From: a bacterium
Lineage (GTDB): Bacteria; Patescibacteriota; Minisyncoccia; Phycocordibacterales; UBA2100
NCBI GenBank assembly: GCA_030647655.1
Contig: JAUSJH010000002.1
Coordinates: 43,711 to 107,710 of the forward strand
Length of the DNA: 64,000 nt
Reading direction: 5' to 3'
Shown: positions 19,623-33,792 of the stretch, piece after piece
Layout: every line of letters begins with the position of its first letter
Numbering within the stretch: position 1 is the stretch's first letter
Notes under the pieces: generated by a model
What the model saw: only the letters and a program-made list of their open reading frames with translations
Told to the model about the DNA's origin: nothing
Database searches by the model: none
Position numbers and translations under genes: made by a program

Positions 19623-19644
19623 GCTGGGATGGCGGAATTGGTAG
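19623..19644 (+). repeat. 22-nt near-identical copy (21/22) of the 5' end of tRNA-Leu(CAA), not part of a foldable tRNA
   Basis: GCTGGGATGGCGGAATTGGTAG here against GCCGGGATGGCGGAATTGGTAG at 19702-19723. No complementary 3' acceptor strand lies downstream. Confidence 0.6.
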
Positions 19645-19701
19645 TGCTGGGACATCGGTGCCATGATAGCGAAGGTCATTACAGGTTAAGATTCACAATA
19701 A

Positions 19702-19783
19702 GCCGGGATGGCGGAATTGGTAGACGCGCACGACTCAAAATCGTGTATCGCAAGATGTGAGAGTTCGAGTCTCTCTCCCGGCA
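19702..19783 (+). tRNA. tRNA-Leu (anticodon CAA)
   Basis: Acceptor GCCGGGA/TCCCGGC. Anticodon stem CACGA/TCGTG with loop CTCAAAA. Long variable arm. T-arm GAGAGTTCGAGTCTCTC. Confidence 0.85.
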
Positions 19784-19804
19784 CAATGGTATAATTCTTT
19801 TCAT

Positions 19805-25041: not shown

Positions 25042-25908
25042 TCAACGCACTCGCACCACACCCAACTCCTCCACTATCAATCCCTTTATTTCCATCGTAC
25101 TAAGCAGCACGTTGGCTTCGGAAATTGGGAGTTCGAGCTCCGTTATCAGTTCGTCGCGAGAGACTGGCGAATGGATTATCTCGAAGACACGCAATTCATC
25201 GGGAGAGAGGTCGTCGCGCAATTCTGCCCATGAAGCAGGACCTTCGCGCTTCGCGATGCCGAGCGCCACGAGGATATCTTCCGCAGATGTGGCCGCCGTG
25301 GCGCCGAGCCGCAGGAATTGGTGTGTGCCTTTGCTCTCCGCGCTGAAGATAGAGCCGGGGACGACCAGTAAGTCGCGGTTGTATTCGGTGACGAGCTTGG
25401 CCGTAATGAGCGAGCCGGATTTTTCTTTCGCCTCGATGATGAGTGTGGCATGCGAAAGCCCCGCCATTATTCTGTTGCGCTTGGGGAACATATAATCCAT
25501 CGTCTTTGCATCGGGTTTTTCTTCCGAAATGAGTGCGCCACCGGCTTTGAGTATCTCGCGTGCGAGGCCTACATTTGCCTTCGGGTACACAACATTCCAA
25601 TCCAATCCCGAGCCTGGGACGCCGACCGTCGTAAGGCCGGCATCGAGCGCGCATCGATGCGCCTCGGCATCAACTCCATACGCGAGCCCCGAAACGATCA
25701 CGATAGGGTAGCCGCGCAAGCCTTCTATCAGATGCCGGCACGCCTGTTTGCCGTAGGTACTCATCGCGCGGCTTCCGACGACCGCGAGCCATTTCTTCTC
25801 GAAGCTTGGCCACTCCCCACGCATACACAACTGCTTCGGCGCGTCAGGAATTTCCCGCAGAAGAGGCGGAAAATCAGCGGGGGAAAGCAGTTTGAGCGCA
25901 TCGTCCAT
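25042..25908 (-). CDS. dprA: DNA processing protein DprA (Smf)
   Basis: Rossmann-like DprA core (AVVGSRAMSTYG...IVSGLAYGVDAEAHRCAL...KRNRIMAGLSHATLIIEA) and a C-terminal winged helix. Start placed at MDDALKLL; the longer track ORF would run antisense through serS. Confidence 0.85.
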   Translation of the reverse strand: MDDALKLLSPADFPPLLREIPDAPKQLCMRGEWPSFEKKWLAVVGSRAMSTYGKQACRHLIEGLRGYPIVIVSGLAYGVDAEAHRCALDAGLTTVGVPGSGLDWNVVYPKANVGLAREILKAGGALISEEKPDAKTMDYMFPKRNRIMAGLSHATLIIEAKEKSGSLITAKLVTEYNRDLLVVPGSIFSAESKGTHQFLRLGATAATSAEDILVALGIAKREGPASWAELRDDLSPDELRVFEIIHSPVSRDELITELELPISEANVLLSTMEIKGLIVEELGVVRVR

Positions 25909-25930
25909 ATAATGGTATGATTTTAACATC

Positions 25931-27205
25931 ATGTTGGACATCAAATTTATACGAGAGAATAAGGACATCGTCGCGGCGGGGGCGAAGAAGAAGCGCGTCA
26001 CGGTGGATATCGACAGACTCCTTGTGGTGGACGACAAGCGACGGGAGCTCCAACTTACCATCGACCAGAAGCGCGCCGAGCAAAATACGGCTTCCGATTC
26101 GATAGCGAGCGCAAAAAATGATACGGAGAGAAAGGAGATAATAACGCGCATGCAGGGAGTGAAAGAGGTGCTTAAATCCGAAGAAGAATCAATGCAGGAA
26201 ATCATGAAAGAGTGGCGCTCTCTCATGGTGATGGTGCCGAATGTGCCCGATATGTCAGTGCCGGATGGGGAGTCTGACGCAGATAACAAGGAAGTGCGTC
26301 AATGGGGTAAGGTACCAAAATTTGATTTCGAGCCCAAGAGCCATAGTGAGCTTCTGCTCGCGAACGATATGGCCGATTACGAGCGCGGGGCCAAGGTCGC
26401 GGGCTTTCGCGGCTACTTCCTCAAGAACGATGGTGCGCGTTTGGTATGGGCGCTCGAGCGCTTTGTGCAGGACAGATTCATGACGCGCGATGGTTTTACG
26501 CCGATGATAGTACCGAGTCTTGTACGGCGAGAAAGTTTCGTCGGCACGGGATATCTGCCGCAGAGCGAGGAGGATCTCTACAAGACGCAGGACGGCGAGT
26601 ACCTCGCGGGCACCGCCGAAGTCGCCTCGATGGGGTACTACATGGGGGAGATAGTGGATAAAAAAGATCTTCCCATCAAATTTTTCTCGTTCTCGCCCTG
26701 TTTCCGTCGCGAAGCGGGGAGTCACGGCAAAGATACTAAAGGCATATTCCGAATACATGAATTTGTGAAATATGAACAGGTCGTGCTTTGCGAAGCGAGC
26801 CACGAAGAATCGGTTCGATTACATGAAGAGCTCACCACGAACGCCGAGACGCTTTTACAGGAATTGAAATTGCCCTATCGCGTTGTTGTGAATTGCGGCG
26901 GAGACCTAGGATTAGGGCAAGTGAAAAAGTATGATATCGAAGCGTGGATGCCGAGCGAGAAAAAATATCGCGAGACGCACTCATCTTCATATTTTCATGA
27001 TTTCCAGACGCGGCGGCTCAATATCCGCTATCGCGGAGAGGATGGTGTGGTCCGATACGTACACTCACTCAACAACACCGCGCTCGCGATGCCGCGTATT
27101 CTCTGTCAGATAGTAGAGAACAACCAACGCGCGGAGGGCTCGATTGCAATCCCGGAGGCACTTCGGGCGTACATGGGCAAAGATGTCATCACGAGGACTC
27201 ATTGA
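25931..27205 (+). CDS. serS: serine--tRNA ligase
   Basis: N-terminal coiled-coil arm (MLDIKFIREN...) and class II motifs (FRRE...GLGQ...). 424 aa. Confidence 0.95.
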   Translation: MLDIKFIRENKDIVAAGAKKKRVTVDIDRLLVVDDKRRELQLTIDQKRAEQNTASDSIASAKNDTERKEIITRMQGVKEVLKSEEESMQEIMKEWRSLMVMVPNVPDMSVPDGESDADNKEVRQWGKVPKFDFEPKSHSELLLANDMADYERGAKVAGFRGYFLKNDGARLVWALERFVQDRFMTRDGFTPMIVPSLVRRESFVGTGYLPQSEEDLYKTQDGEYLAGTAEVASMGYYMGEIVDKKDLPIKFFSFSPCFRREAGSHGKDTKGIFRIHEFVKYEQVVLCEASHEESVRLHEELTTNAETLLQELKLPYRVVVNCGGDLGLGQVKKYDIEAWMPSEKKYRETHSSSYFHDFQTRRLNIRYRGEDGVVRYVHSLNNTALAMPRILCQIVENNQRAEGSIAIPEALRAYMGKDVITRTH

Positions 27206-33144: not shown

Positions 33145-33150
33145 TTTTTA

Positions 33151-33168
33151 CTGGGGGACTTGGAATCG
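33151..33168 (-). repeat. 18-nt exact copy of the 3' end (T-arm/acceptor) of tRNA-Gln
   Basis: CTGGGGGACTTGGAATCG occurs at 33151-33168 and again at 33270-33287, the true tRNA 3' end. The copy at 33151 is not part of a foldable tRNA. Confidence 0.6.
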
Positions 33169-33269
33169 CCTCTCGTTGCTGCTGCAACTCGAAACCTTCG
33201 CTCCCTCGTCGGGAGCTGCGGCCCGCGGTTCGTATTCAAGTCTACCCCACTTTTCCGCTTCGCTTCAAA

Positions 33270-33340
33270 CTGGGGGACTTGGAATCGAACCAAGATTCAC
33301 AGCTCCAAAGGCTGCTGTCCTACCGTTAGACGATCCCCCA
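33270..33340 (-). tRNA. tRNA-Gln (anticodon TTG)
   Basis: The reverse complement reads TGGGGGATCGTCTAACGGTAGGAC-A-GCAGC-CTTTGGA-GCTGT-GAAT-CTTGGTTCGATTCCAAG-TCCCCCA-G, with a U1-A72 pair as in E. coli tRNA-Gln. Confidence 0.75.
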
Positions 33341-33399
33341 ATGTTTGTCGATACTACGGATTATATCCTCTTTTAGCAACCGGAAGGAGGTGTGGTAGC

Positions 33400-33792
33400 A
33401 TGGGCCACATGAACAAACTATTAGGCATCGCAGTCCTTATTATTCTCATCGGCGGGGGTTTTTGGTATATGCAATCTAACAAGCAGTCTAACAAATTTGT
33501 GAATACTGCAGATATGTGGGGCAAATACCCATATGAATGTGATGAGCATGTAACCTTTACAATGACACCAGCATCAGACATGAGTTCCATTCAGGTCGCG
33601 CCTTCCAACAATGGAACGTATCCGCCTGCGAGTACGCTTATGAAAAAGGAGAGCGCCTCGGGGGTTCGCTATGAGGGCAACGGCATCGTCTTTGCGGGAA
33701 GAGGAGAGACGGTAACGCTCGGAGAGGGGGACTCGGCCATCAACTGCTCTCCTATCCCGCAAGAGTGGGGGTCATTTAATTTTGGCGACTAG
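33400..33792 (+). CDS. small secreted/membrane-anchored hypothetical protein
   Basis: Strong RBS GGAAGGAGG 8 nt upstream. Signal anchor LLGIAVLIILIGGGFWY. 130 aa. Confidence 0.5.
   Translation: MGHMNKLLGIAVLIILIGGGFWYMQSNKQSNKFVNTADMWGKYPYECDEHVTFTMTPASDMSSIQVAPSNNGTYPPASTLMKKESASGVRYEGNGIVFAGRGETVTLGEGDSAINCSPIPQEWGSFNFGD

What the first reader, a model, noticed from the sequence alone, without database searches (positions are those of the whole stretch)
33145..33340. Duplicated 3' end of tRNA-Gln about 100 bp from the intact gene
An exact 18-nt copy of the tRNA-Gln T-arm and acceptor 3' end (CTGGGGGACTTGGAATCG) lies at 33151-33168, immediately after the methyltransferase stop codon. It is separated from the true tRNA by a 101-nt spacer containing a GCTCCC-TCGTC-GGGAGC hairpin. 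A duplicated tRNA 3' end is the classical signature of integrase-mediated insertion (attL/attR), but here the copies are only about 100 bp apart. That suggests either a deleted element remnant or a small structured RNA between the repeats.
Basis: seen in the sequence. Interest (0 to 1): 0.5.

Follow-up and report, generated by a model that had tools for sequence, protein, structure and literature searches.

The report
Conserved mini-cassette inserted in tRNA-Gln
The duplicated tRNA end is real and brackets a 119-base, gene-less but conserved and folded insertion in the tRNA-Gln gene of a Kaiserbacteria (Patescibacteria) genome, apparently one of a wider, seemingly undescribed set of tiny cassettes next to tRNA genes in this phylum.

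Summary
The repeat is real: an exact 19-nt direct repeat (33150-33168 and 33269-33287), about 0.01 expected by chance. tRNA-Gln(UUG) lies on the minus strand, so the repeat runs from its T-loop to one base past its 3' end.

It is not a random scar. The same 119-nt unit follows tRNA-Gln in four Kaiserbacteria lineages at 93-95% identity, while 4-fold sites of the adjacent methyltransferase gene are saturated (43%). Relatives have precise empty sites. In one lineage the ancestral tRNA trailer follows the distal repeat. This is the junction anatomy of site-specific insertion at the T-loop.

The unit folds on the tRNA-sense strand into a three-way junction. Its closing helix pairs an inverted copy of the tRNA 3' end with the distal repeat. 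Every substitution in the two inner hairpins is compensated.

No recombinase, ORF, second tRNA or Rfam family is present. The same layout occurs at tRNA-Ile and tRNA-Gln(CUG) in other Patescibacteria, sometimes in tandem, with a GCGAAGC motif enriched 14-fold.

Best reading: a miniature, non-autonomous integrative cassette whose fold is under selection. Whether the fold acts as a hairpin recombination site or as an RNA is open.

The parts
33270..33340 (-). tRNA-Gln(UUG) gene, no encoded CCA
   Evidence: ARAGORN; Rfam RF00005, 60.6 bits
33269..33287 (-). Proximal copy of the 19-nt repeat (T-loop C56 to discriminator G73, plus one U). It completes the working tRNA and is attL-like. Inferred to be cassette-borne.
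   Evidence: flank logic from L116 versus L002
33250..33269 (-). 20-nt linker UUUGAAGCGAAGCGGAAAAG. It holds the GCGAAGC mini-hairpin motif at the tip of the palindrome formed by the tRNA 3' end and its inverted copy.
   Evidence: Only 2 variable positions across 4 lineages. Palindrome folded as DNA: -16.3 kcal/mol, z = -6.4, 0 of 200 shuffles as stable. Motif enrichment.
33225..33249 (-). A': imperfect inverted copy of the tRNA 3' end (UGGGG-UA-GACUUG-AAUAC-GAA-C-CGC). It is the 5' strand of closing helix P1.
   Evidence: the repeat finder pair I1; folds; invariant in 4 lineages
33200..33216 (-).
   Evidence: 4 of 6 pairs show changes on both sides and one shows G-C to G-U across lineages. 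Stems: CUCCC/GGGAG, GUCUC/GAGAC, GCGUC/GACGC.
33170..33193 (-). Hairpin HP2 (UUC-GA-GUUGC-AGCA-GCAAC-GA-GAG) with conserved GA/GA internal loop and AGCA loop
   Evidence: One pair changed on both sides, and one pair lost on both sides together in L104 and L116
33150..33168 (-). Distal copy of the 19-nt repeat. It is the 3' strand of P1. Inferred to be the displaced original tRNA 3' end (attR-like).
   Evidence: In L116 this copy is followed by the trailer that directly follows the tRNA in L002.
33360..33365 (-). TATAAT hexamer 20 nt upstream of the mature tRNA 5' end; possible -10 box of the unit
   Evidence: Read from the sequence. Not called by the two-hexamer promoter scan.

Best explanation
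The two repeats are the ends of a 119-bp, ORF-less insertion cassette lodged in the 3' end of the tRNA-Gln(UUG) gene.

Shown: the cassette is a discrete unit, namely linker, inverted copy A' of the tRNA 3' end, two hairpins, and a direct copy A. It is present in four Kaiserbacteria lineages and precisely absent from others. The identity block begins in the T-loop and ends one base past the tRNA. The ancestral tRNA trailer can be found after the distal copy. On the tRNA-sense strand the unit folds into a three-way junction whose variable stems co-vary.

Inferred: it entered by site-specific (integrase-type) recombination at the T-loop sublocation. The cassette supplied the replacement 3' end of the tRNA and displaced the original 3' end to the far side. 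It is a miniature, non-autonomous element that depends on a recombinase encoded elsewhere.

Also inferred: its fold is kept by selection. My preferred reading is that the cassette-borne palindrome (A, GCGAAGC-tipped linker, A') rebuilds the duplex of the tRNA gene end as a hairpin-type attachment site, in the way integron attC or CTX-phage attP sites do. I hold this sub-mechanism at about 0.3.
For: The exact 19-nt repeat is far beyond chance.

The same 119-nt unit follows tRNA-Gln in L001/L101, L104 and L116/L117. Identity is 93-95%, against 43% at 110 four-fold sites of the neighbouring methyltransferase gene.

Empty sites exist with the same tRNA 3' end in L108 and L112. L002 has the tRNA followed by ccagcttatgctaagtcaggtgactga. 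L116 has caagcttatgctaagtcaggtgactga directly after the distal repeat.

The start of the repeat in the T-loop matches a canonical integrase sublocation (bioRxiv 10.1101/2020.11.02.365908, citing Williams 2002; Islander, PMC4383910).

Structure: RNAalifold independently gives 34 pairs, 5 with changes on both sides and none broken. All cells are paired, and 0 of 500 shuffles reach the covariation score. Slid registers pair in at most 50% of cells.

The palindrome of tRNA end, linker and A' has z = -6.4 as DNA.

The same layout, sometimes in tandem, occurs in L100, L092, L046 (tRNA-Gln CUG) and L058 (tRNA-Ile). In L109 the 18-nt distal copy carries that genome's own T-arm variant.

GCGAAGC, known as an unusually stable DNA mini-hairpin (PMC13037366), is 14-fold enriched in these spacers. 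Six of 7 copies are on the tRNA-sense strand.
Against: No integrase or other recombinase lies in or beside any copy. Neighbours are KilA-N, GIY-YIG, Y1_Tnp and HicA ORFs. None was found among 30 window ORFs scanned.

A 119-bp double-stranded circle is too small to be a comfortable recombination substrate.

No free or viral form was found.

The tRNA allele upstream of the presumed crossover also tracks with the cassette: 0-3 differences among carriers against 6-19 between carriers and the non-carriers compared. A pure T-loop crossover does not predict this. It fits either vertical descent or transfer of the whole tRNA+cassette unit.

Only four lineages carry this exact cassette, so covariation rests on few independent events. 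Template-switch mutation in DNA quasi-palindromes could mimic compensation.

The architectural relatives at other tRNAs show no significant sequence homology to it.
Confidence: 0.55

Rival explanations
1. The unit is a functional small RNA or structured 3' trailer, co-transcribed with tRNA-Gln. Helix P1 copies the first five acceptor pairs (U1-A72, G2-C71 to G5-C68), the discriminator G and the T-stem. It therefore mimics the acceptor/T-arm minihelix. RNase P, RNase Z and the CCA-adding enzyme could then process it. It could act as a decoy or regulator, or simply sequester the extra tRNA 3' copy. This is compatible with an insertional origin. It competes only as the reason for conservation.
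For: Three invariant G.U pairs, plus a G-C to G-U change in two lineages, work only on the tRNA-sense strand. Loops and junctions are invariant while stems co-vary, which is the usual pattern of functional RNAs. There is no terminator between the tRNA and the unit in the window. The orientation is always that of the tRNA, even where the unit is inverted as a whole. The sense-strand fold is somewhat better than the antisense fold: z = -3.2 against -2.2.
Against: No Rfam family matches, even at E<=10. The predicted minimum-energy fold of the whole tRNA+unit transcript (-86.6 kcal/mol) destroys the cloverleaf. It is 17 kcal/mol more stable than cloverleaf plus junction (-69.6). In the analogous L058 module an intrinsic terminator hairpin separates the tRNA from the module. 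Close relatives do without the unit. P1 never varies, so there is no covariation evidence for the mimic helix itself.
Confidence: 0.3
2. It is an inert scar. A kilobase-scale island once sat between attL and attR and was almost entirely deleted, and what remains is drifting.
For: The repeat has classic att anatomy. L109 has a 1-kb insertion at the same place. The 8 nt just 5' of its distal copy (GCGAGAGG) match this unit at 7 of 8 positions, and it shares the 10-mer GAGTTGCAGC.
Against: Identity across four lineages is 93-95% while synonymous sites are saturated. Substitutions are concentrated in two stems and all are compensated. Outside the junction, similarity to the L109 island is not above shuffles: 62 of 200 shuffles score as high.
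Confidence: 0.1
3. No mobile element is involved. The layout arose by local DNA repair or replication errors at the tRNA end. Examples are fold-back priming on the GCGAAGC mini-hairpin, which would create the inverted copy, and slippage, which would create the direct copy.
For: A long quasi-palindrome is centred on a very stable mini-hairpin. Inverted copies without a direct copy occur at L023. The unit is itself inverted in the window.
Against: This does not explain the precise 119-nt filled/empty alternation with the ancestral trailer after the distal copy. It does not explain why the direct copy starts at canonical integrase sublocations (T-loop here, anticodon loop in L100). It does not explain the conserved non-tRNA cargo hairpins shared by four lineages.
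Confidence: 0.12
4. The whole 190-bp tRNA+cassette is the mobile unit. It replaces the resident tRNA-Gln by homing or gene conversion, for example after cleavage by the GIY-YIG endonucleases encoded next to tRNA-Gln in relatives. Resident 5' and 3' fragments are left behind.
For: The tRNA allele tracks with the cassette and not with methyltransferase similarity. Window-L116: 80% methyltransferase identity, 1 tRNA difference. L001-L112: 90.5% identity, 9 differences. In the four carriers, conservation starts exactly at the tRNA 5' end and stops at the distal repeat, and all flanks differ. 5' tRNA fragments with GIY-YIG ORFs, or their remnants, lie upstream in L001 and L104. L112 shares its tRNA allele with the distant L110 and carries a GIY-YIG ORF.
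Against: The window and L116 have no 5' fragment and no endonuclease gene. L112 and L107 have the GIY-YIG cassette without this 3' unit. One-gene similarity is not a phylogeny, and a single loss in L112 also fits the data.
Confidence: 0.2
5. The repeat is an assembly artefact, or part of a second genuine tRNA.
For: None found.
Against: Four independent assemblies carry the unit. ARAGORN and Rfam find a single tRNA.
Confidence: 0.01

Closest known systems
Genomic islands and prophages integrated into tRNA genes by tyrosine integrases (attL/attR; Islander/Williams scheme)
   Same: An intact tRNA plus a displaced 3' fragment in direct orientation. The identity block runs from the T-loop to the gene end. 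Relatives have empty sites. The original trailer lies beyond the distal copy. Accretion can be tandem (L100, L092, L046).
   Different: The insert is 100 nt between the repeats rather than kilobases. It has no integrase and no ORF. It carries an inverted copy of the att core and conserved, co-varying hairpins. It is conserved across lineages like a gene.
Integron gene cassettes with attC sites, and CTX-phage-type folded single-stranded attP sites (own knowledge)
   Same: The layout is a target-site core, then a cassette body, then an imperfect inverted repeat whose distal arm repeats the core. The hairpin has bulges at fixed places and a variable, sometimes branched, tip. There is no recombinase in the cassette. 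Arrays grow at one site.
   Different: There is no GTTRRRY/RYYYAAC core and no IntI/attI/Pc platform or dif site. The core is a tRNA 3' end. Single-strand recombination is untested here.
Neisseria intergenic mosaic elements (arrays of 50-150-bp units bounded by 20-bp dRS3 repeats that are phage attachment sites) and cis-mobilisable att-flanked elements lacking an integrase (own knowledge)
   Same: Very small non-coding units bounded by att-type repeats, sometimes in arrays and dependent on trans-acting enzymes.
   Different: A different phylum, and the repeats are not tRNA-derived. No tRNA restoration is involved. No such unit is known to carry co-varying hairpins plus a tRNA-end palindrome.
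tRNA-like minihelix substrates and tRNA-linked small RNAs (RNase P model substrates, mascRNA, 3' external transcribed spacer sRNAs; own knowledge)
   Same: A helix copies the acceptor and T stems and ends in the discriminator base, directly downstream of a tRNA in the same transcript direction.
   Different: There is no T-loop, D-arm or encoded CCA. There is a 2-nt bulge inside the helix. Processing is untested.
Group I introns in Patescibacteria tRNA genes (PMC13011429)
   Same: The same phylum, with tRNA genes as targets of selfish or structured insertions.
   Different: Those introns sit in the anticodon loop, are several-fold larger and self-splice. This unit lies after an intact tRNA, is 119 nt long and matches no intron model.

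Membership tests
tRNA-integrated element (attL/attR) | Intact tRNA plus a displaced tRNA fragment in direct orientation | tested here: met
   19-nt exact direct repeat; a single intact tRNA
tRNA-integrated element (attL/attR) | Identity block starts at a canonical sublocation (anticodon loop, T-loop or 3' end) and runs to the gene end | tested here: met
   The block starts at T-loop C56 and ends 1 nt past G73. Sublocations as summarised.
tRNA-integrated element (attL/attR) | Empty site in relatives, with the original flank beyond the distal copy | tested here: met
   L108, L112 and L002 are empty. The L116 flank after the distal copy equals the L002 flank after the tRNA at 26 of 27 positions.
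tRNA-integrated element (attL/attR) | Integrase gene inside the element, next to one att site | tested here: not met
   The 100 nt between the repeats hold no ORF. No integrase was found in neighbours or in 30 window ORFs.
Integron cassette / attC | Imperfect inverted repeats forming a bulged hairpin whose distal arm repeats the target core | tested here: met
   A' pairs with the distal copy, with a UA bulge and an AAUAC internal loop. The tRNA end/linker/A' palindrome has z = -6.4.
Integron cassette / attC | Core sites GTTRRRY and RYYYAAC, and an IntI/attI platform | tested here: not met
   These motifs are absent from the unit (sequence). No integrase was found.
Integron cassette / attC | Recombination of the folded single strand | not testable with these tools
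   Needs biochemical or genetic assays.
Second tRNA gene or tRNA pseudogene | Cloverleaf detectable by tRNA models | tested here: not met
   ARAGORN finds nothing there. Rfam finds no tRNA there at E<=10. There is no T-stem 5' strand before the copy.
Any Rfam 15 RNA family (ribozymes, riboswitches, sRNAs, introns) | Covariance-model match | tested here: not met
   Only weak chance hits (CyaR 19 bits, mir-631, an IRES), all far below their gathering scores
Intrinsic terminator | GC-rich hairpin followed by a U run | tested here: not met
   None called in the region on the tRNA strand. The unit is followed by UAAAAAUU.
MITE | Terminal inverted repeats at both ends of the inserted segment, plus a short target-site duplication | tested here: not met
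   The inserted segment, defined against empty sites, includes a 20-nt linker outside the inverted repeat. The duplication is 19 nt of tRNA.
tRNA acceptor/T-arm minihelix mimic | Continuous helix copying the acceptor and T stems plus the discriminator | tested here: inconclusive
   5 + 6 pairs identical to tRNA-Gln pairs, interrupted by a 2-nt bulge. The helix is invariant, so there is no covariation test. Enzymatic recognition was not tested.

The most novel reading that the evidence does not exclude
Patescibacteria carry a so far undescribed class of ORF-less mini-cassettes of about 100-240 bp. They insert into the T-loop region of tRNA genes through a hairpin-type attachment site: a cassette-borne palindrome that rebuilds the tRNA gene end, often tipped by the GCGAAGC DNA mini-hairpin. 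They pile up in short arrays next to the tRNA and are moved in trans by a host or distant recombinase. This would be a tRNA-based analogue of integron cassettes or CTX-type single-strand integration. The window's unit would be one well-conserved member.
Probability: 0.22. Interest if true: 0.8.

Novelty: new variant of a known kind. Interest (0 to 1): 0.6.

Why it matters
tRNA genes are the classic landing sites of islands and prophages. Those elements are kilobases long and carry their own integrase.

A 119-bp unit is something current island finders and RNA family libraries both miss. This one is gene-less. It shows the full att anatomy, is conserved like a gene, co-varies like a structured nucleic acid, and recurs in layout at other tRNAs of the phylum.

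If it moves through a folded hairpin site, it extends single-strand site-specific recombination to tRNA targets. It would do so in a phylum with tiny genomes and natural competence genes.

If it acts as an RNA, it is a new tRNA-end mimic attached to the tRNA-Gln gene.

Either way, it flags tRNA-Gln in Kaiserbacteria as a hot spot. The gene is invaded from both sides, by GIY-YIG cassettes on the 5' side and mini-cassettes on the 3' side, and whole tRNA alleles appear to be swapped between lineages.

Tried and rejected
**Second tRNA or pseudogene at the first copy.** Rejected.

**Known RNA family, ribozyme or group I intron.** No Rfam match at E<=10, and the unit is too small for a group I intron (PMC13011429).

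**Terminator.** None on the tRNA strand.

**Exact-protein look-ups.** Look-ups of the two flanking window proteins found nothing.

**Methyltransferase orthologues as a route to more loci.**
- P0043, P0033, P0005 and P0019 loci lack a tRNA-Gln with the unit.

**Pattern and similarity scans.**
- Viral contig scans for the repeat pair, for A' and for the 18-nt core: no hits.
- Phage and plasmid BLAST with the unit: no match.
- Ten of the 16 metagenome hits to the two-copy pattern were unrelated protein-coding tandem repeats.

**Covariance model of the unit.** It finds only the four known lineages in 500 kb; the next hit scores 11 bits.

**Sequence homology to other modules.** Homology of the unit to the L109 island interior and to the L046 and L058 modules is not above shuffles. 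I therefore claim shared architecture only.

**Integrase in cis.** None found.

**Simple in-place inversion in the window.** Rejected, because the ATATCCT..TTTAGC motif keeps its forward orientation.

**Complementarity of A' to the tRNA anticodon stem (GGAGCUG).** It is not kept in the other lineages, so I treat it as chance.

**Literature.** Searches found no description of such units.

Full report
**Observation**

The window holds an exact 19-nt direct repeat, ACTGGGGGACTTGGAATCG, at 33150-33168 and 33269-33287. These are the only two matches even with three mismatches allowed. Shuffles give 0.01 expected matches.

ARAGORN and Rfam find one tRNA-Gln(UUG), on the minus strand at 33270-33340. 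Neither finds a tRNA at the other copy, even at E<=10.

In tRNA sense the repeat is CGAUUCCAAGUCCCCCAG+U. It covers the last five T-loop bases, the 3' strands of the T and acceptor stems, the discriminator and one trailer base. The order is tRNA, then a 100-nt spacer, then the second copy. That copy ends 5 nt from the stop codon of a convergent class I methyltransferase gene.

**Organism and context**

Methyltransferase homologues carry names such as Candidatus Kaiserbacteria, Parcubacteria group and Patescibacteria. The neighbourhood is housekeeping: Dus, dnaX, a methyltransferase, a pseudouridine synthase and a copper ATPase. In relatives the order Dus-dnaX-methyltransferase-tRNA-Gln is conserved, with the tRNA on the same strand as the methyltransferase gene.

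**The same unit elsewhere**

Directly after tRNA-Gln, four lineages carry the same 119-nt unit, that is, spacer plus distal copy:
- the window;
- L001/L101 (a groundwater MAG and its ENA contig);
- L104 (JGI);
- L116/L117 (NCBI/ENA).

Spacer identity is 93-95% and tRNA identity 96-100%. Between the window and L001 the methyltransferase gene is only 43% identical at 110 four-fold degenerate sites, which is saturated. Conservation begins exactly at the tRNA 5' end and stops at the distal repeat. All eight flanks differ.

A covariance model of the unit finds only these copies in 500 kb of fetched sequence. Viral, phage and plasmid collections have nothing.

**It is a precise insertion**

L108 and L112 have a tRNA-Gln with the same 3' end and no unit. 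In L002 the tRNA is followed by ccagcttatgctaagtcaggtgactga. In L116 the near-identical caagcttatgctaagtcaggtgactga follows the distal repeat.

So the distal copy with its trailer is the original gene end. The tRNA-proximal copy plus 100 nt is the inserted DNA.

The identity block starts in the T-loop. In L100 a different spacer is bounded by a 37-nt block that starts in the anticodon loop. These are the two symmetric sublocations used by tyrosine integrases (citing Williams 2002). The regenerated target plus a displaced fragment is how islands are mapped (PMC4383910; PMC9897764).

However, there is no ORF in the unit. No recombinase lies beside any copy; neighbours are KilA-N, GIY-YIG, Y1_Tnp and HicA ORFs. 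None was found among 30 window ORFs scanned.

**Structure**

On the tRNA-sense strand the unit folds into a three-way junction (-44.8 kcal/mol, z = -3.2). RNAalifold on the four lineages returns the same fold: 34 pairs, 5 changed on both sides, none broken.
- Closing helix P1 pairs an imperfect inverted copy of the tRNA 3' end (A', 33225-33249) with the distal repeat.
- HP1 exists as CUCCC/GGGAG, GUCUC/GAGAC and GCGUC/GACGC.
- HP2 exists as GUUGC/GCAAC, GCUC/GAGC and GUUC/GAAC, with the AGCA loop and flanking GA/GA kept.

All cells pair, and 0 of 500 shuffles reach the covariation score. Slid registers pair in at most 50% of cells.

Three invariant G.U pairs and a G-C to G-U change fit only the tRNA-sense strand.

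P1 and the linker never vary. For them there is conservation but no covariation evidence.

**A palindrome at the tRNA end**

A' is also complementary to the tRNA's own 3' end. The tRNA end, the 20-nt linker (UUUGAAGCGAAGCGGAAAAG) and A' form a quasi-palindrome (as DNA -16.3 kcal/mol, z = -6.4).

The predicted minimum-energy fold of the whole tRNA+unit transcript (-86.6) uses this pairing and destroys the cloverleaf. The sum for cloverleaf plus junction is -69.6. This is awkward for a purely RNA-level rationale, unless processing outruns refolding.

**Generality**

I examined 37 tRNAs in all fetched loci. Several show the same layout of tRNA end, hairpin linker, inverted copy, cargo and direct copy:
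- L058 tRNA-Ile;
- L046 tRNA-Gln(CUG), with a second, truncated module in tandem;
- L100 (second module);
- L092 (first module).

Direct or inverted partial copies also occur at tRNA-Pro, tRNA-Thr, tRNA-Ala and the window's tRNA-Leu(CAA).

In L058, L046 and the window, the inverted copy is interrupted at the same place, between the acceptor part and the T-stem part. The interruption is a hairpin in the first two and a 2-nt bulge in the window.

In L109 a 1-kb insertion ends in an 18-nt copy that carries that genome's own T-arm variant.

Sequence homology of these modules to the window's unit is not above shuffles, so I claim shared architecture only.

GCGAAGC is reviewed as an extraordinarily stable DNA mini-hairpin (PMC13037366). 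It is 14-fold enriched in these spacers (7 observed, 0.49 expected), and 6 of 7 copies are on the tRNA-sense strand. This observation was made post hoc.

**History of the locus**

The tRNA allele tracks with the unit rather than with methyltransferase similarity. Carriers differ at 0-3 tRNA positions at 80-95% methyltransferase identity. Carriers against the non-carriers compared differ at 6-19 positions, and at 6-13 where methyltransferase identity is comparable (78-92%). L001-L112 shows 90.5% identity and 9 differences.

This fits either old vertical retention with allele replacement in L112, or movement of the whole 190-bp tRNA+unit. I cannot separate the two.

On the 5' side, GIY-YIG endonuclease ORFs, or their remnants, sit between a 5' tRNA-Gln fragment and the intact gene in L001, L107, L112, L104 and L100. 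tRNA-Gln is therefore invaded from both sides.

In the window the unit is inverted relative to all relatives. It lies between the TTTTTA and ATATCCT..TTTAGC pieces of what is the tRNA promoter region elsewhere. A simple inversion does not explain this.

**Interpretation**

Shown:
- a real repeat;
- a discrete, precisely inserted, gene-less 119-bp unit;
- conservation far above neutral expectation;
- a co-varying fold on the tRNA-sense strand;
- a recurring layout at other tRNAs.

Inferred:
- insertion by integrase-type recombination at the T-loop;
- dependence on a trans-acting enzyme;
- selection on the fold.

My preferred reading of the fold is a hairpin-type attachment site, as in integron attC or CTX-phage attP. 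Its support:
- the palindrome is entirely cassette-borne;
- its tip is a DNA-specific stable hairpin;
- modules occur in short arrays;
- no cassette carries a recombinase;
- one analogue is separated from its tRNA by a terminator.

An RNA role, as an acceptor/T-arm mimic or an insulating trailer, remains a serious rival. An inert scar is unlikely.

**Novelty**

The att anatomy is textbook. A conserved, structured, ORF-less mini-cassette with an inverted copy of the tRNA end is not in Rfam, and it is not in the papers I could search. I class it as a new variant of a known kind, with a modest chance of being a new class of single-strand-type cassettes.

Noticed in passing
window 19624-19645 (+), upstream of tRNA-Leu(CAA) at 19702-19784: A 19-nt copy (GGGATGGCGGAATTGGTAG) of the 5' end and D-arm of tRNA-Leu(CAA) lies 57 nt upstream of the gene. 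The spacer contains AGCGAAG. This is the 5'-side counterpart of the finding, in the same genome.
   Followed up: partly
window 33145-33400, compared with L001 4745-5100, L104 323-520 and L108 3311-3368: The tRNA-Gln+cassette unit is inverted in the window relative to every relative. It sits between the TTTTTA and ATATCCT..TTTAGC pieces of the relatives' tRNA promoter region. The motif keeps its forward orientation, so this is not a simple inversion.
   Followed up: partly
L001 4794-5100; L107 1526-1850; L112 1545-1855; remnants at L104 374-520 and L100 5399-5492: Small GIY-YIG endonuclease ORFs (83-84 aa) lie between a 5' fragment of tRNA-Gln and the intact tRNA-Gln. The fragment often has a hairpin inserted in its D-loop. 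L104 and L100 have ORF-less versions. This looks like a homing-type cassette on the 5' side of the same gene.
   Followed up: partly
L107 1941-2041: A second, full-length tRNA-Gln-like pseudogene lies 19 nt after the intact gene. It carries the same 32-nt D-loop insertion as the upstream 5' fragment (1526-1580).
   Followed up: no
L109 3441-5636, compared with L108 3440-3526: A 2.2-kb island follows tRNA-Gln (a KilA-N ORF, two small ORFs and a HicA toxin gene). It is absent from the relative L108. Its first 1-kb module ends in an 18-nt copy of L109's own variant tRNA 3' end.
   Followed up: partly
L046 1225-1467 (-) and L058 2611-2776 (-): Modules with the same layout follow tRNA-Gln(CUG) and tRNA-Ile(GAU) in distant Patescibacteria. 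L046 has two modules in tandem, the outer one truncated. In L058 an intrinsic-terminator-like hairpin forms the centre of the palindrome.
   Followed up: partly
All tRNA-flanking spacers listed: GCGAAGC/AGCGAAG is 14- to 30-fold enriched in these spacers and almost always on the tRNA-sense strand. The test was made after the motif had been noticed.
   Followed up: partly
L116 3720-4412; L088 5857-6312: IS200-type Y1 transposase ORFs lie near the locus in two relatives. In L116 the ORF starts 147 nt after the cassette, beyond the ancestral trailer. No link to the cassette was found.
   Followed up: no
tRNA-Gln genes of L108/L109 and L112/L110: tRNA-Gln alleles do not follow methyltransferase similarity. 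L108-L109: 89.6% methyltransferase identity but 14 tRNA differences. L112-L110: 78.7% identity but 2 differences. This suggests the tRNA gene is swapped between lineages.
   Followed up: partly
window 33151-33340 (-): The predicted minimum-energy fold of the full tRNA+cassette transcript pairs the tRNA 3' half with the inverted copy. It also pairs the tRNA 5' acceptor strand with the distal repeat. This fold is 17 kcal/mol more stable than cloverleaf plus junction.
   Followed up: no
window 25042-26289 (-): A DprA (DNA-processing protein A) gene is present. It may be relevant if single-stranded DNA uptake feeds cassette recombination; this is only a thought.
   Followed up: no
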